Below, piece by piece: positions 36,401-42,400 of a DNA stretch of 64,000 bases. Position numbers: made by a program. Each line of letters opens with the position of its first letter. Within the stretch, counting starts at the first letter, position 1. Source of the DNA: Escherichia coli (lineage in GTDB: Bacteria; Pseudomonadota; Gammaproteobacteria; Enterobacterales; Enterobacteriaceae); assembly GCF_011045215.1 (NCBI RefSeq), contig NZ_CP049201.1; one strand, written 5' to 3'.

Positions 36401-39400
36401 AATCCTGATGATGAGAAAATATTTCCCGCTTGAGGCGAGCGAGCGTCTATTTGTTGCGATTGAAGAAGATGATGTCGTTGATGCACAGGTTAGTTTGCCG
36501 CCGACTATTGCACTAAGTTGTACCACCGAAATCATTCATGATAATTACGCGTTATGCCTGCAATTCTGGCTCAATGGCGTTAATCGTCAGGAATTACTGC
36601 GTTTAGTTCGCAAACAAGCCAAAGGCGATGAGCTGACTGCTGATGAGCGCAAACAATTTAAATACATGCGAGCGCGCTACAAGCACCTGCGTTTTGCGCA
36701 ACGGCTGTATTTAAAGAAGCATCAGGCCGGATTTTTATTCGGCAAAACGACCGTTTTTCTGGGACGTTTTCAGGACGGGTTTCGTAACGGTAAGAAAAAT
36801 ATTGTGTCGTATTACGGCAACCTGTTACGGATTTATTTAAGCTCTCCGGTCTGGTCGTTGGTGAACTATTCATTACGCCATAGCCAGTTAGAAAGCGTAA
36901 GCGGTTTTATTGCCTATCGGCAAAAGCAAATGCATGCCCTGAAAGAGATAATTGCCAAACCGCGACTAACCGGCAGGGAATTTCATGATGTGCGAAAAAT
37001 CATCAGCCAGCAGGTTTCTTATTACGACACCTTAAGATCGCTTGATCCTGAAAATAAAGAGGCGTTACAGATTTCCCGTTTCCTCGCCGCCATTAATGGC
37101 CTGATGGGGGATAAACACGACGACATGGTGGCGGATGATATGGAAAACCGCCAGTCGTATGATGCACCGGTGGCGCTGGATAGCGATATTCGCCAGCGCT
37201 TAGAGCTGCTGATTTCGCGTTTTCCGCTATAACCGGAGCAATGATGTCATCTCGTTTGATTATTGCGCTGATTATCATGCTCTTAGCCCCGGGAGTGCAG
37301 GCACACAATTTCGTCACTGGCAAAACGGTTACCCCTGTTTATATTCAGGAAGGCGGCGAGCTGCTTCTGAATAGCGACGACGAAATTCACTACCAAAAGT
37401 GGAACAGCACACAATTGGCGGGAAAAGTCCGCATTATCCAGTATATCGCCGGGCGTAAGTCAGCGAAGAAGAAGAACTCACTATTAATTAAAGCGGTTGA
37501 AGCGGCAAACTTTCCACAGGATCGTTTTCAGCCCACCACCATTGTGAACACCGATGATGCCATCTTTGGTACTGGCTATTTTGTTGTTGGCAAAATCGAA
37601 AAAAATAAACGCCGCTATCCGTGGGCGCAATTCGTTATCGACGGCAATGGACAGGGACGCGTTGCCTGGCGCTTGCCGGAGCAGAGTTCAACCATTCTGG
37701 TGCTGAATAAAGCCGGGCAAATTCAGTGGGCAAAGGACGGCAGCCTGACGCCGGAAGAGGTAGATCATGTCATTGCGCTGGCGCAGAAACTGATCAATGA
37801 ATAAAAAATTCAAAGGATTGAGGGCGTTAGTGAGATGAAGCTGGTTGAACACTACATCATGCGTGGTACGCGCCGTCTGGTGCTGATTATCGTCGGTTTT
37901 CTGATCTTTATTTTCGCCAGCTACTCCGCACAGCGTTATCTGACCGAAGCGGCAAATGGGACATTAGCACTTGATGTTGTGCTGGATATCGTTTTCTACA
38001 AGGTGCTGATTGCACTGGAGATGTTGTTACCTGTTGGACTGTATGTGTCAGTTGGCGTGACGCTAGGGCAGATGTATACCGACTCGGAAATTACTGCTAT
38101 CTCTGCGGCGGGGGGCAGTCCGGGACGCTTGTACAAAGCCGTTCTTTATCTGGCGATACCGCTAAGTATTTTTGTCACCCTTCTGTCGATGTATGGTCGT
38201 CCGTGGGCTTATGCGCAGATTTATCAGCTGGAGCAACAGTCACAGTCGGAACTGGATGTTCGCCAGTTGCGGGCAAAGAAATTTAACACTAACGATAACG
38301 GACGAATGATCCTTTCGCAGACGGTTGATCAGGATAATAATCGCCTGACTGACGCGCTGATTTATACTTCTACTGCCAATCGAACCCGCATTTTCCGCGC
38401 CCGTTCGGTTGATGTGGTTGACCCATCACCCGAGAAACCGACCGTTATGTTGCATAACGGCACAGCCTATCTTCTCGATCATCAGGGGCGTGACGACAAC
38501 GAACAGATCTACCGTAATCTGCAATTACATCTGAATCCGCTGGATCAAAGCCCTAACGTCAAACGCAAAGCGAAATCGGTCACGGAGCTGGCGCGCTCCG
38601 TCTTTCCAGCCGATCATGCCGAACTGCAATGGCGACAAAGCCGTGGCCTGACAGCATTGTTGATGGCGCTGCTGGCCATTTCATTAAGTCGGGTAAAACC
38701 GCGGCAAGGGCGATTTTCAACATTATTGCCACTGACGTTGCTGTTTATTGCCATTTTTTATGGCGGCGACGTCTGCCGTACGCTGGTGGCTAACGGCGCA
38801 ATTCCCCTCATTCCTGGTTTGTGGTTAGTGCCCGGACTCATGCTAATGGGCCTGCTGATGCTGGTCGCACGCGACTTCTCTTTGCTGCAGAAATTTTCCC
38901 GATGAATGTTTTCAGTCGCTATTTAATCCGTCATCTCTTTCTCGGTTTTGCCGCCGCCGCAGGGCTATTGCTGCCGCTTTTTACCACCTTCAACCTGATT
39001 AACGAACTGGATGATGTCAGCCCGGGCGGTTATCGCTGGACTCAGGCGGTGCTGGTGGTGCTAATGACCTTACCGCGCACACTGGTCGAACTTTCGCCGT
39101 TTATCGCCTTATTGGGAGGGATTGTTGGCCTGGGGCAGTTATCGAAAAACAGTGAGCTTACCGCCATTCGCAGCACGGGTTTTTCTATCTTCCGTATTGC
39201 ACTGGTGGCGCTGGTTGCCGGGATATTGTGGACTGTTTCGTTAGGCGCGATAGATGAGTGGGTAGCGTCGCCATTGCAGCAACAGGCGCTGCAAATCAAA
39301 TCGACCGCCACTGCGTTGGGGGAGGACGATGATATTACCGGCAATATGCTTTGGGCCAGGCGCGGTAATGAATTTGTAACGGTGAAATCGCTGAACGAGC

Positions 39401-42400
39401 AGGGCCAGCCGGTGGGCGTGGAGATATTTCATTATCGCGACGATCTCTCGCTCGAATCCTACATTTATGCACGCAGTGCCACCATTAAAGACGACAAAAT
39501 GTGGATCCTGCATGGTGTGAATCATAAAAAATGGCTTAACGGTAAAGAAACGCTGGAAACATCAGATAATCTTGCCTGGCAATCGGCCTTCACCAGTATG
39601 GATCTTGAAGAGCTATCGATGCCGGGGAATACTTTTTCTGTCCGTCAGCTTAATCATTACATCCATTATTTGCAGGAAACCGGGCAACCCAGCAGCGAAT
39701 ACCGCCTTGCACTGTGGGAAAAACTGGGGCATCCCATTTTAACCCTGGCGATGATTTTGCTGGCAGTGCCTTTTACCTTTAGTGCCCCGCGCTCGCCAGG
39801 GATGGGTAGCCGTCTCGCTGTAGGTGTCATCGTTGGCTTACTCACCTGGATCAGCTATCAAATCATGGTCAATCTGGGATTGCTATTTGCGTTGAGCGCA
39901 CCTGTTACCGCGCTCGGTTTACCGATAGCGTTTGTGCTGGTGGCGTTGAGCCTGGTGTATTGGTATGACAGACAACATTAAACCCGCCGTGGCGCAACAC
40001 CACGGCGGGCTCACATTACTGCTTCAGAGTAGCAAATGCCTGAATGATGGCATCGATTTGCTCACGACTGTGGGCAGCGTTTACGCTACAGCGCAGCAGC
40101 GTGATGCCTGCAGGCGCGGCAGGTGGCAGGATAAGATTCACATAAACGCCCAGCGAAATAAGCTCGCGCCAGATGCGTAAACCGTCCTCTTTCGAACCGA
40201 TTATTACCGGCACTACCGGGCTAATATGTGAACTTAACTCATAACCCAGTTTTTGCAGACCGTCATACAGATGGTTGGCATTATCCATCAGCTTTTGCCG
40301 CAGCTCTGGTTGTGTGGCAATAGTTCTTAACGACGAGCGCACGGTCGCAATGCAGGACGGAGAAGGAGAGGCGGTAAAAATATACGGGCGGCTGCCGTAG
40401 CGCAGCACTTCCATCGCTTCCGAACCGACAGCAAAACCGCCAATCGAGGCCAGACTTTTACTGAAGGTGCCAACGATAATATCCACATCATCTTCAACGC
40501 CTACAGCTTCAGCCAGTCCGTGCCCCGTTGCGCCTAACACGCCAAACGAATGCGCTTCATCGACAATCAAATAACCACCGAGACGACGTTTGATATCAAC
40601 AATTTCCGCCAGCGGCGCAACGTCACCGAGCATACTGTAGATGCCCTCAACGATGATAATCGCCTCTTTCGCCCGTTCACCGAGGCGAACCATGCGCCGT
40701 TCCAGATCTTTAGCATCGTTATGGCGGAAACGAATAATTTCCGCGCCACCGAGAGAACAGGCGTCATAAATACTGGCGTGGCTGTCGGCATCCAGTAACA
40801 CCACGGCGTTATGGTCGGCAAGTGCGCTGATGACGCCTAAATTAGCGGTATAACCGGTTGAAAAAACGATAGCGGTAGGGCGATTGAAAAACTCGGCAAT
40901 CTCTTTCTCTAACGCCAGGTGCGGCGCATAACTGCCGTTTGCCATACGAGAACCGGTGGTGCCGGTGCCTTGGGTCGCTAACGCTGCCTGACCTTCGGCG
41001 ATGGCATCATGATTAAAGGTTAAACCGAGGTAATTATTGGTCCCGGCCAGAATCACTTTTTTATTGCCGATCCGGCCTTCGGTGGCGGAATACACTTCAT
41101 CAATACAGGTGCCAAACGGTGTTAACCCGTTGTCACTAAATTGCAGTCGCTCGCCAGCAAGGCGCGCATATTTATCGTATAGCCCCATTATTTATTCTCC
41201 AGCCATGGAAGTAGAGTTTCCATTAATTGCGCAGGGGTTTTGACATCCAGCAGAATATTAATAGGAATGGAAATATCGAATCTGTCTTCCAGCATCATTA
41301 AGAGATCCATCACTTTGATCGACTCCAGGCCAAGATCGTTGACGAGATCGCTGTCGGGCTTAATTTCCACACCGTTTTCGACCAAATCCTGTAAACAGGA
41401 AAGGATGTAATCCATTACTATTTCACGATTTACCATAGAAACGTTAACACACCTTTAAACAAGACAATCAAAATAGCCCGTTGCGTAATGCGTGTTCCAG
41501 GCTAATCCCGGGAAACCAATTAATATCTTCAGAAATACGGTTATTACTTGCCGACCAGTCGGCGTGGGTTAATTCACGAATTTTCGAGCGGGTCAGCATA
41601 GGTTCTTTACCTGCCAGGCGACTCAACGCGGTACTGATATCCGCAAGGCAGGTGAGTACCGGCAGAGGAATGCCAACCATTCGCACGGAACCACAACGGG
41701 CGTCGGCGGCAAGTTGCTGTACGCGTTGCCAGTCATAGCCGCCAGCGACGCCATCGCATAATTCATAGGTTTGCGTCTGTACAGTTTCGGCGCTTAACCA
41801 CTGACCCACTGCTTGCGCGAAATCGGTGACGTGCAGGAAAGAGAGCTGTGTATCTGGCGCACCAAGTCGTGGCAGCAGGCCGCGCAGCATCCAGTCAAAC
41901 AGCGGTTTTAACTCTTTATCGCCGGGGCCATACACGGCTGTCGGGCGAAAAACGCCCAGCGTAATTTTGTCAGCCATTGCAGTCAGCCGTTGTTCGGCGA
42001 CATATTTGGAATTTGCGTACCAGGAGAGTTCGGGATGGCGCGCCGCCAGCGAAGGGATAAACAGAAAACGTTGGCAAAAACCGCTCTCTTTTGCCGCCTG
42101 CATCAGGCGCAGACTGCCGTCAACGTTACAGCGGGTGAAAATCTCTTCTTTGTGCCCGCGCACTTGTCCGGCGCAATGAACCACCGCGCTGGCTCCGGCA
42201 ACCAGTTCGCTAAGCGAATGTGTATCTTCCAGCGAACCGCGCACCCAGGTGAGATTATCATTGACGTGAGCGCGGGCAGTACGCGTCAATGCGCGAACGT
42301 GAAAGCAGCGGGCGAGCAGGTTATCGATAATATATTTACCGATAAACCCGGTAGCGCCCGTCACCGCGACAATTTGATTCATGCCAGGGATTCCTGCACA

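What the first reader, a model, noticed from the sequence alone, without database searches (positions are those of the whole stretch)
37835..39981. Accessory paralogous LptF/LptG-like permease pair with no linked ATPase
Two adjacent, translationally coupled ORFs both belong to the YjgP/YjgQ (LptF/LptG) permease family, which normally forms the essential LptB2FG lipopolysaccharide extractor. A second pair, embedded in a lipid-biosynthesis neighbourhood with no ABC ATPase gene nearby, suggests a dedicated extractor for a non-LPS glycolipid or sphingolipid, perhaps borrowing housekeeping LptB or another ATPase.
Basis: partly seen in the sequence, partly recalled or inferred. Interest (0 to 1): 0.75.

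Follow-up and report, generated by a model that had tools for sequence, protein, structure and literature searches.

The report
Sphingolipid-locus LptF2/LptG2 permease pair
These two overlapping genes are an intact second copy of the lipopolysaccharide-extractor membrane subunits, sitting inside E. coli's sphingolipid synthesis island; they most likely export that lipid using the cell's ordinary LptB motor, an idea already published for Caulobacter in 2024-2026.

Summary
ORFs 37835-38905 (356 aa) and 38902-39981 (359 aa) overlap by ATGA. They score above NCBIfam's curated cut-offs for LptF and LptG, and no ABC ATPase is encoded anywhere in the 64-kb window. They are only 28-29% identical to E. 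coli's own LptF and LptG, are under strong purifying selection, and occur in 4130 of 5426 complete E. coli genomes. Those genomes also carry canonical lptFG and a single lptB. K-12 lost the pair through an IS5-associated deletion.

The neighbouring genes are the characterised E. coli dihydroceramide genes: aasR, epi/cerR, acpR, spt and yghO/aca. In 80 loci from gamma-, beta- and deltaproteobacteria, the pair always travels with these genes or with yghO alone, and never with a stand-alone LptB-like ATPase.

The coupling-helix glutamates that dock LptB are invariant. The basic lipid-A-phosphate cluster of LptG (K34/K40/K41) is replaced by N/D, D/E and D.

A 2024 paper named LptF2/G2, and a 2026 preprint showed that Caulobacter LptF2/G2 bind LptB and drew the E. 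coli UTI89 locus.

One new detail: the E. coli-type pair does not group with the Caulobacter pair, which hints at independent recruitment.

The parts
37835..38905 (+). lptF2: LptF-type permease, 356 aa, with six TM helices and a periplasmic beta-jellyroll
   Evidence: TIGR04407 at 318 bits against a cut-off of 230. PDB LptF chains match at E 1e-25 to 1e-32. The AF2 model has pLDDT 83, and its best Foldseek hits are LptF chains, with TM 0.78. It is 29% identical to K-12 LptF. The coupling-helix residue E85 corresponds to LptF E84.
38902..39981 (+). lptG2: LptG-type permease, 359 aa, whose start overlaps the lptF2 stop (ATGA)
   Evidence: TIGR04408 at 305 bits against a cut-off of 240. It matches E. 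coli LptG chain 6mhu_G at E 5e-41 over residues 3-351. It is 28% identical to K-12 LptG. E85 corresponds to LptG E88. K34/K40/K41 of LptG are N31/D37/D38 here.
39979..40013 (.). 16-bp GC-rich hairpin in the 34-base gap between the convergent lptG2 and spt genes; it looks like a terminator
   Evidence: Consensus scan. It is a pattern match only.
40016..41188 (-). spt, serine palmitoyltransferase
   Evidence: NF047599 at 597 bits against a cut-off of 500. The BL21 orthologue ECD_02854 makes 3-oxo-sphinganine (PMC9386255).
41188..41436 (-). acpR, specialised acyl carrier protein
   Evidence: Matches ACP models. ECD_02853 carries 4'-phosphopantetheine and is the preferred Spt substrate carrier (PMC9386255).
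41468..42382 (-). epi/cerR, an NAD-dependent SDR reductase of the ceramide pathway
   Evidence: Matches SDR/epimerase models. It corresponds to ECD_02852 'epi'.
42379..44109 (-). aasR, a fatty acyl-AMP ligase that acts as the acyl-AcpR synthetase
   Evidence: NF006624 at 876 bits. It corresponds to ECD_02851, which has been characterised.
44472..45614 (+). yghO/aca, the N-acyltransferase (bacterial ceramide synthase candidate)
   Evidence: No Pfam or NCBIfam match. PMC9386255 equates yghO (ECD_02850) with 'aca'. It is the gene most constantly linked to lptF2G2: it is found in every locus that extends far enough upstream to include its usual position.
37241..37804 (+). YtfJ-family protein (probably exported), found in the enterobacterial form of the locus only
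   Evidence: TIGR01626 at 212 bits. No relative has a solved structure. It is present only in Enterobacterales loci.
36408..37232 (+). Hypothetical 274-aa protein, found in the enterobacterial form only
   Evidence: No NCBIfam or Pfam match. It co-occurs with yghQ and the ytfJ-like gene.
35059..36408 (+). yghQ, a MOP-family (Wzx-like) flippase candidate
   Evidence: Weak match to a MOP flippase model. Non-enteric loci carry an MsbA-like fused ABC gene next to spt instead.
32644..35013 (.). yghT (-), yghS (+) and yghR (+): three paralogous P-loop, dTMP-kinase-like proteins. They are not ABC ATPases.
   Evidence: Weak matches to dTMP kinase models. They have a Walker A motif but no ABC signature. 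They are absent from many loci that carry lptF2G2.

Best explanation
LptF2 and LptG2 are the two membrane subunits of a second LptB2FG-type ABC extractor. Its substrate is the ceramide-based lipid made by the adjacent aasR-cerR-acpR-spt and yghO genes, not lipopolysaccharide.

Proposed mechanism:
1. The lipid is made at the cytoplasmic face of the inner membrane.
2. It is flipped across the membrane; YghQ is the candidate here, and an MsbA-like protein in Pseudomonas-type loci.
3. It enters the V-shaped cavity between LptF2 and LptG2 from the outer leaflet.
4. It is squeezed out towards the periplasmic beta-jellyrolls when a dimer of the housekeeping ATPase LptB closes. LptB is docked on the conserved coupling helices of both subunits.
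5. Onward passage to the outer membrane probably uses the ordinary LptC/A/DE bridge.

What is shown and what is inferred:
- Shown here: family membership, fold, gene integrity, purifying selection, conserved linkage to the ceramide genes, absence of a dedicated ATPase, retention of the LptB-docking motif, and replacement of part of the lipid-A-phosphate-binding cluster.
- Shown by others, in Caulobacter only: LptF2-LptG2-LptB complex formation, and essentiality that depends on spt.
- Inferred: substrate identity in E. coli, use of LptB, and the downstream route.
For: 1. Family and fold.

2. Ancient paralogues that remain functional:
- They are 28-29% identical to K-12 LptF and LptG.
- dN/dS is 0.04-0.07 for lptF2 and 0.04-0.05 for lptG2 against diverged Escherichia lineages, similar to spt at 0.03-0.04.
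- The pair is intact in 4105 of 4130 carrier genomes.

3. Linkage to ceramide genes:
- A scan of one genome per species found 277 genomes with a relative.
- In the best 80 loci, LptG2 is always adjacent.
- Spt, AcpR, CerR, AasR and YghO lie within 10 kb in almost all untruncated loci down to 38% identity.
- In Nitrosomonadaceae and Desulfobacterota loci, only yghO is adjacent.
- In Pseudomonas-type loci the pair sits in a single run of genes: yghO, NTP_transf_3, lptF2, lptG2, DAGK_cat (the Pfam domain family that the ceramide kinase CpgB belongs to).

4. The neighbouring enzymes work: E. coli BL21 Spt, AcpR and AasR make 3-oxo-sphinganine (PMC9386255).

5. ATPase:
- No ABC ATPase is encoded in the window.
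- LptB-like hits in related loci are the C-terminal domains of roughly 580-aa MsbA-like fused genes, or unrelated genes 6-10 kb away.
- lptB is present at one place per genome in 5425 of 5426 E. coli genomes.
- The coupling-helix Glu is invariant in 81 of 81 sequences for both proteins.
- The published consensus (Phi----EPhi-PhiPhi---G) is met in 80 and 78 of 81.
- This segment is 51% and 41% identical to K-12 LptF and LptG, against 24% and 27% overall.

6. Substrate cavity, with contact residues taken from PMC6744409:
- LptG K34 becomes D/N in 72 of 81 sequences.
- LptG K40 becomes D/E in 80 of 81.
- LptG K41 becomes D in 76 of 81.
- LptG I66 becomes D/E in 64 of 81.
- LptG R133 becomes hydrophobic in most sequences (66 of 81 in the counts listed).
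- LptF R33, LptF K317, LptG K62 and LptG R136 stay basic.

7. Direct precedent: in Caulobacter, LptF2 and LptG2 co-purify with each other and with LptB, and can be deleted only in delta-spt or delta-cpgB backgrounds.
Against: - No sphingolipid has been reported from wild-type E. coli in the papers I read. BL21 extracts carrying empty vector made no detectable 3-oxo-sphinganine, so the locus may be silent under laboratory conditions.
- About 24% of complete E. coli genomes, K-12 included, lack the pair, so it is dispensable.
- The E. coli-type proteins are not demonstrably orthologous to the Caulobacter proteins for which the experiments exist. The LptB evidence therefore transfers by analogy.
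- No LptC or LptA paralogue is present in any locus, so the periplasmic route is unknown.
- The head-group genes differ between enteric and Pseudomonas-type loci, so the exact substrate is undefined.
Confidence: 0.68

Rival explanations
1. The pair does export the locus's sphingolipid, but it is powered by an ATPase other than housekeeping LptB. That could be an orphan ABC nucleotide-binding protein encoded elsewhere in the genome.
For: The genome outside the window could not be searched for orphan ABC ATPases. Use of LptB has been shown only in Caulobacter, whose pair is not clearly orthologous.
Against: - The coupling helices are the best-conserved segment relative to canonical LptF and LptG, and they keep the invariant Glu and Gly that dock the LptB groove.
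- No stand-alone ATPase is ever linked to the pair in 80 loci.
- YghR/S/T lack an ABC signature and are missing from many loci.
Confidence: 0.12
2. The pair is an alternative or back-up lipopolysaccharide extractor, for example for a modified lipid A, and its position next to the sphingolipid genes is incidental.
For: PGAP and NCBIfam label both proteins with the LPS-export equivalog names. Four of the basic LPS-contact residues are retained.
Against: - Linkage to spt or yghO is conserved from Enterobacterales to Desulfobacterota despite extensive rearrangement of the loci.
- LptG K34, K40 and K41 are replaced by acidic or neutral residues, and K34E is lethal in canonical LptG.
- Every carrier genome keeps canonical lptFG.
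Confidence: 0.06
3. In E. coli the locus is a silent, decaying remnant with no current function.
For: It is deleted in K-12 and absent from about 24% of genomes. Truncated copies occur in Shigella-like entries. No native product is seen in BL21 extracts.
Against: dN/dS is 0.04-0.07 across diverged Escherichia lineages. The pair is full-length in 4105 of 4130 carrier genomes. Lengths of 356 and 359 aa are the commonest in the family across 80 species.
Confidence: 0.06

Closest known systems
Caulobacter crescentus LptF2/LptG2 (CCNA_01214/CCNA_01213), the sphingolipid-locus paralogues of LptFG (PMC11324152; bioRxiv 10.64898/2026.04.12.717747)
   Same: - An adjacent F-then-G-type permease pair lies inside the sphingolipid biosynthesis locus, close to the aca/bCerS gene.
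- There is no lptB copy in the locus, and the genome has a single lptB.
- The preprint draws the E. coli UTI89 locus beside the Caulobacter one.
- In my alignment the LptG2 position equivalent to LptG K34 is acidic or neutral in both, though that alignment is uncertain.
   Different: - The proteins share only about 24-27% identity.
- The beta/gamma LptF2 profile scores K-12 LptF (174 bits) and Caulobacter LptF (76 bits) above Caulobacter LptF2 (46 bits).
- In an NJ tree, Caulobacter LptF2 sits with Caulobacter LptF and outside the E. coli-type clade in 30 of 30 bootstraps.
- There is no LptC2 here.
- The head-group genes differ: E. coli has no CpgB-type DAGK_cat kinase.
- No experiments have been done on the E. 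coli pair.
Canonical E. coli LptB2FG(C) lipopolysaccharide extractor (LptF b4261, LptG b4262; PDB 6MHU, 6S8H)
   Same: - It belongs to the same Pfam/NCBIfam families and has the same six-TM plus beta-jellyroll fold.
- It has the same overlapping F-G gene arrangement.
- It has the same coupling-helix consensus with invariant Glu and Gly.
- It is likewise unlinked to lptB.
   Different: - Identity is 28-29%.
- The pair here is accessory, present in 76% of genomes, rather than universal.
- The K34/K40/K41 phosphate-binding cluster of LptG is replaced by N/D, D/E and D. LptG R133, LptF K30 and LptF K322 are also lost.
- The family carries its own RPWAY motif at the end of TM3.
- It is linked to ceramide genes rather than to pepA.
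Rhodobacterial (alpha/beta/gamma-proteobacterial) dihydroceramide gene set aasR-acpR-spt-epi-aca (PMC9386255)
   Same: The five genes flanking the pair in the window are the E. coli BL21 genes ECD_02850 to ECD_02854 described in that paper.
   Different: In the parts of that paper I read, the adjacent LptFG-like genes are not discussed. It deals with synthesis, not transport.

Membership tests
LptF/LptG (YjgP/YjgQ, PF03739) permease family | Sequence match to the LptF and LptG family models above the curated thresholds | tested here: met
   TIGR04407 scores 318 bits against a cut-off of 230. TIGR04408 scores 305 bits against a cut-off of 240. Each protein scores far lower on the other model. 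PF03739 is precomputed on close homologues.
LptF/LptG (YjgP/YjgQ, PF03739) permease family | Six transmembrane helices with a periplasmic beta-jellyroll between TM3 and TM4 | tested here: met
   The AF2 model of LptF2 (pLDDT 83) has helices at 3-137 and 240-355 and strands at 158-232. Its top Foldseek hits are LptF chains, with TM 0.78 to 9dok_F. LptG2 aligns to 6mhu_G over residues 3-351. LptG2 was not modelled.
LptF/LptG (YjgP/YjgQ, PF03739) permease family | Coupling helix consensus Phi----EPhi-PhiPhi---G with the invariant Glu (LptF E84, LptG E88) that docks the LptB groove | tested here: met
   The Glu is present in 81 of 81 sequences of both proteins. The consensus is met in 80 of 81 (F2) and 78 of 81 (G2). 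The motif definition comes from PMC5082905.
Canonical LPS extractor (functional equivalog of LptFG) | Basic residues that bind the lipid A phosphates and inner core: LptG K34, K40, K41, K62, R133, R136; LptF R33, K317, K322 | tested here: not met
   K34 is N, K40 is D, K41 is D, R133 is L and LptF K322 is N in the window protein. These replacements are conserved across the family. K62, R136, LptF R33 and LptF K317 remain basic.
Canonical LPS extractor (functional equivalog of LptFG) | Universal, single-copy, essential gene pair of the species | tested here: not met
   The pair is absent from 1296 of 5426 complete E. coli genomes and deleted in K-12. Canonical lptFG is present in 5425 of 5426.
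Sphingolipid-locus LptF2/LptG2 (as defined in Caulobacter) | Encoded within, and co-inherited with, the sphingolipid synthesis genes | tested here: met
   In the window the pair is adjacent to spt, acpR, cerR, aasR and yghO. The linkage is conserved in 80 loci across many genera.
Sphingolipid-locus LptF2/LptG2 (as defined in Caulobacter) | No dedicated LptB; forms a complex with the housekeeping LptB | not testable with these tools
   The absence of a linked ATPase gene was verified, and lptB occurs once per genome. Physical interaction needs pull-downs or multimer modelling, neither of which was available.
Sphingolipid-locus LptF2/LptG2 (as defined in Caulobacter) | Deletion tolerated only when sphingolipid (spt) or anionic head-group synthesis is abolished | not testable with these tools
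   This is a genetic experiment, reported for Caulobacter only.
Sphingolipid-locus LptF2/LptG2 (as defined in Caulobacter) | Orthology (shared duplication event) with CCNA_01214/CCNA_01213 | tested here: inconclusive
   Profile scores and an NJ tree place Caulobacter LptF2 with Caulobacter LptF, not with the E. coli-type clade. However, the Caulobacter sequences came from a machine-read figure that had lost a few residues. The tree is a simple NJ tree, and GC-driven composition bias or long-branch effects are not excluded.

The most novel reading that the evidence does not exclude
The LptF2/LptG2 pair found in E. coli, Pseudomonas and Nitrosomonas may be a lineage separate from the Caulobacter LptF2/G2. 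It is marked by the RPWAY motif and by a charge-reversed K34/K40/K41 patch on LptG TM1. If so, LptFG paralogues were recruited to sphingolipid loci at least twice, independently. In that case the acidic TM1 patch would be a convergent selectivity filter that excludes lipid A and admits a ceramide-based head group.
Probability: 0.35. Interest if true: 0.55.

Novelty: already known. Interest (0 to 1): 0.35.

Why it matters
About three quarters of complete E. coli genomes carry a full ceramide synthesis set plus a dedicated LptFG-type permease pair. The laboratory workhorse K-12 lost both to an IS5-associated deletion, so the system is missing from the reference strain on which much E. coli work is based.

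If the locus is active in natural strains, E. coli's outer membrane may contain a sphingolipid under some conditions. The essential ATPase LptB, which is an antibiotic target, would then serve two different permease pairs.

The concept itself is already in the literature for Caulobacter. What remains open is the E. coli lipid, the conditions under which it is made, and whether LptB, LptC, LptA and LptDE are shared between the two systems.

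Tried and rejected
- I tried to establish orthology with the experimentally studied Caulobacter proteins. A profile search with distant LptG2 members returned only beta-, gamma- and deltaproteobacterial relatives. Cluster look-ups of ten representative proteins gave almost no organism names. I finally took the Caulobacter sequences from the preprint's machine-read Supplemental Figure 1, which is imperfect.
- Context look-ups for the 34-38% identity representatives P0127 and P0129 landed on contigs too short to be informative.
- I considered YghR/S/T as the missing ATPase and rejected it. 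They are dTMP-kinase-like P-loop proteins without an ABC signature, and they are absent from many lptF2G2 loci.
- I considered YghR/S/T as homologues of the ceramide kinase CpgB and rejected that too. CpgB is a DAG-kinase/LCB5-type enzyme. A DAGK_cat gene is present in Pseudomonas-type loci but not in the window.
- I considered the MsbA-like ABC gene of Pseudomonas-type loci as the motor and rejected it. It carries its own transmembrane domain, so it is a self-contained half-transporter.
- Pfam gave nothing for YghO or for the 274-aa protein. PDB gave nothing for the YtfJ-like protein.
- The promoter scan found no more sites than shuffled sequence does, so it was not used.

Full report
**1. 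What is in the sequence**

The window is an Escherichia chromosome segment running hyb, gss, pitB, yghT/S/R/Q, then yghO, glcCDEFGBA and sslE. The finding's 2147-bp interval is 99.1% identical to the same interval of E. coli PapM-32-1.

At the stated coordinates there are two + strand ORFs:
- 37835-38905, 356 aa.
- 38902-39981, 359 aa when counted from the ATG. The mechanical ORF list runs back to a GTG at 38821.

The junction reads ccgATGAatg, so the stop of the first ORF and the start of the second overlap by four bases.

NCBIfam places the first ORF in LptF (TIGR04407, 318 bits, cut-off 230) and the second in LptG (TIGR04408, 305 bits, cut-off 240). Each scores far lower on the other model. 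Both align end to end with solved LptF and LptG chains.

An AlphaFold2 model of the first protein (pLDDT 83, pTM 0.70) shows the expected six helices and a beta-jellyroll at residues 158-232. Its best structural matches are LptF chains, with TM 0.78.

A six-frame scan of all 64 kb found no ABC signature motif in a real ORF. The only Walker A motifs belong to YghR, YghS and YghT.

**2. It is a second pair, old and maintained**

- Canonical lptFG is present in 5425 of 5426 complete E. coli genomes, and lptB in 5425 of 5426, at a median of one place per genome.
- The pair studied here is present in 4130 genomes, and full-length in 4105.
- In K-12, an IS5 element sits between a truncated yghQ and yghO. 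Everything between them, including this pair, is gone.
- The two proteins are 29% and 28% identical to K-12 LptF and LptG, so they are not recent duplicates.
- Against diverged Escherichia lineages, dN/dS is 0.04-0.07 for lptF2 and 0.04-0.05 for lptG2. That is like spt (0.03-0.04) and not far from the flanking housekeeping genes.

The genes are neither pseudogenised nor recent copies.

**3. The neighbourhood is a characterised sphingolipid locus**

Convergent with lptG2, and separated from it by a 16-bp GC-rich hairpin, lie these genes:
- spt (NF047599, 597 bits);
- an ACP gene;
- an SDR reductase;
- a fatty acyl-AMP ligase.

yghO is transcribed divergently beyond them.

PMC9386255 identifies exactly these E. 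coli BL21 genes as aca/yghO, aasR, epi, acpR and spt (ECD_02850 to ECD_02854). It shows that the E. coli AasR, AcpR and Spt together make 3-oxo-sphinganine.

Upstream of lptF2, in what looks like one operon, are:
- yghS and yghR, which are P-loop, dTMP-kinase-like proteins;
- yghQ, a MOP-family flippase candidate;
- a 274-aa protein with no family match;
- a YtfJ-family protein.

**4. Linkage across species**

A scan of one genome per species, using the family motif ..RPWAY, found 277 genomes with a relative. I examined the best 80 loci with 10-kb flanks. They come from:
- many Enterobacterales genera;
- Pseudomonas, Azotobacter and Azomonas;
- Methyloversatilis, Nitrosomonas and Nitrosospira;
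- Nitrococcus and Salinisphaera;
- Thiotrichales and Desulfobacterota.

LptG2 is adjacent in all 80. Spt, AcpR, CerR, AasR and YghO are within 10 kb in almost every untruncated locus down to 38% identity. In Nitrosomonadaceae and Desulfobacterota, only the yghO homologue is adjacent. This matches the scattered arrangement of these genes reported for Nitrosomonas eutropha.

Gene order and accessory genes differ between lineages. Non-enteric loci carry the run yghO, NTP_transf_3, lptF2, lptG2, DAGK_cat and a 321-aa protein, plus an MsbA-like gene next to spt. Enteric loci carry yghTSR, yghQ, the 274-aa gene and the ytfJ-like gene instead.

The constant core is therefore the five ceramide genes plus lptF2G2. 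That is strong guilt by association for a ceramide-based substrate, whatever the head group.

**5. The ATPase question**

First, a correction of emphasis. Canonical lptFG in E. coli lies next to pepA, while lptB lies in the lptCAB cluster more than a megabase away. An LptFG pair without a linked ATPase is therefore normal.

In the 80 related loci, every LptB-like hit falls into one of two classes. Some are the C-terminal domain of a roughly 580-aa MsbA-like fused transporter. The rest are unrelated genes 6-10 kb away. No stand-alone LptB-like gene is ever attached to the pair.

The published coupling-helix consensus and its invariant glutamates, LptF E84 and LptG E88, mediate assembly with LptB (PMC5082905). 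These features are kept:
- The Glu is present in 81 of 81 sequences of both proteins.
- The consensus is met in 80 and 78 of 81.
- This 16-residue segment is 51% and 41% identical to the K-12 proteins, against 24% and 27% overall.

This fits a shared LptB but does not prove it.

**6. The substrate cavity**

LPS contact residues were taken from the Shigella LptB2FG-LPS structure (PMC6744409) and mapped onto the family alignment.

Residues of LptG that change:

| Canonical LptG residue | In the LptG2 family |
|---|---|
| K34 | D/N in 72 of 81 |
| K40 | D/E in 80 of 81 |
| K41 | D in 76 of 81 |
| I66 | D/E in 64 of 81 |
| R133 | hydrophobic in most (66 of 81 in the listed counts) |

In LptF, K30 and K322 are lost.

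Residues that stay basic are LptF R33, LptF K317, LptG K62 and LptG R136.

K34E is lethal in canonical LptG. The family-wide charge reversal on TM1 therefore argues against lipid A as the substrate. It points to a smaller head group with fewer anionic sites. That last step is inference.

**7. Comparison with what is known**

- PMC11324152 (2024) already named second copies of LptC, LptF and LptG in the Caulobacter sphingolipid region and proposed that they transport sphingolipids.
- The preprint 10.64898/2026.04.12.717747 (April 2026) showed that lptF2, lptG2 and lptC2 can be deleted only in delta-spt or delta-cpgB backgrounds.
- It also showed that LptF2 and LptG2 co-purify with each other and with the single LptB, and that there is no second lptB.
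- Its Figure 2B draws the E. coli UTI89 locus beside those of Caulobacter and Sphingomonas. The text says lptF2 and lptG2 occur in many alpha- and gammaproteobacterial loci, while lptC2 is restricted to Caulobacter.

**8. A wrinkle: orthology with the Caulobacter pair is not shown**

I took the Caulobacter sequences from the preprint's machine-read supplementary figure, which had lost a few residues.

- A profile of the 81 E. coli-type LptF2 sequences scores K-12 LptF at 174 bits, Caulobacter LptF at 76 bits and Caulobacter LptF2 at only 46 bits.
- The LptG2 profile scores K-12 LptG at 276 bits, Caulobacter LptG2 at 78 bits and Caulobacter LptG at 70 bits.
- In an NJ tree, the LptF2 sequences linked to spt or yghO form a clade. 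That clade excludes K-12 LptF in 23 of 30 bootstraps and excludes both Caulobacter proteins in 30 of 30. Caulobacter LptF2 pairs with Caulobacter LptF.

This hints that LptFG paralogues were recruited to sphingolipid loci more than once. Composition bias, long branches and the crude method all leave it open.

As a result, the Caulobacter experiments support how the E. coli pair works by analogy. They do not establish it as a member of the same orthologous group.

**9. Verdict**

The feature is real, intact and selected. It is best explained as the permease half of a sphingolipid extractor that shares LptB.

The locus itself has been drawn in a published figure, so I rate the novelty as already known and the interest as moderate to low.

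The remaining open points are:
- whether and when E. coli makes the lipid;
- what its head group is;
- whether LptB, LptC, LptA and LptDE are shared between the two systems;
- whether the beta/gamma and alpha paralogues arose independently.

Noticed in passing
window 35059-45614, compared with L003 (K-12 NC_000913.3 3129043-3132408): In K-12 an IS5 element (insH9) lies between a 3'-truncated yghQ and yghO. The 274-aa gene, the ytfJ-like gene, lptF2, lptG2, spt, acpR, cerR and aasR are all missing. The reference strain therefore lacks the whole transport and synthesis core that 76% of complete E. coli genomes carry.
   Followed up: partly
window 37241-38905: The ytfJ-like gene and lptF2 are in the same reading frame, 30 bases apart. 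The protein database holds several single-member 553-aa YtfJ+LptF fusions (PF09695+PF03739). Loss of one stop codon would create such a fusion. Whether these entries are real variants or sequencing errors is unknown.
   Followed up: no
window 32644-35013: Three paralogous P-loop proteins, YghT, YghS and YghR, match dTMP kinase models only weakly. They co-occur with the sphingolipid locus in Enterobacterales and, at 36-46% identity, in some Pseudomonas. They may be head-group kinases. The enteric loci lack the DAGK_cat kinase and the NTP_transf_3 gene found in other lineages.
   Followed up: partly
L032, L039-L040, L045-L053, L056-L058, L060, L062-L063, L065, L075, L086: In Pseudomonas, Azotobacter and betaproteobacterial loci, a roughly 580-aa MsbA-like fused ABC transporter lies in the locus, directly next to spt in the Pseudomonas and Azotobacter loci. 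The enteric loci have the MOP-family YghQ instead. This looks like a non-homologous replacement of the presumed flippase.
   Followed up: partly
L030 (Martelella alba BGMRC 2031) and L050 (Pseudomonas sp. MAG NGEE_A_bin41): A genome labelled as the alphaproteobacterium Martelella alba carries a fully enterobacterial-type locus, 64-78% identical to the window's proteins. This suggests misassignment or contamination. One Pseudomonas MAG has YghT/S/R at 68-73% identity but LptF2 at only 54%, which suggests a mosaic or chimeric contig.
   Followed up: no
window 39979-40013: A 16-bp GC-rich inverted repeat fills the 34-base gap between the convergent lptG2 and spt genes. It is a candidate bidirectional terminator.
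   Followed up: no
window 55528-60105: A long ORF (1525 aa) corresponds to the lipoprotein metalloprotease SslE annotated in the matching E. coli genome. It is unrelated to the finding.
   Followed up: no
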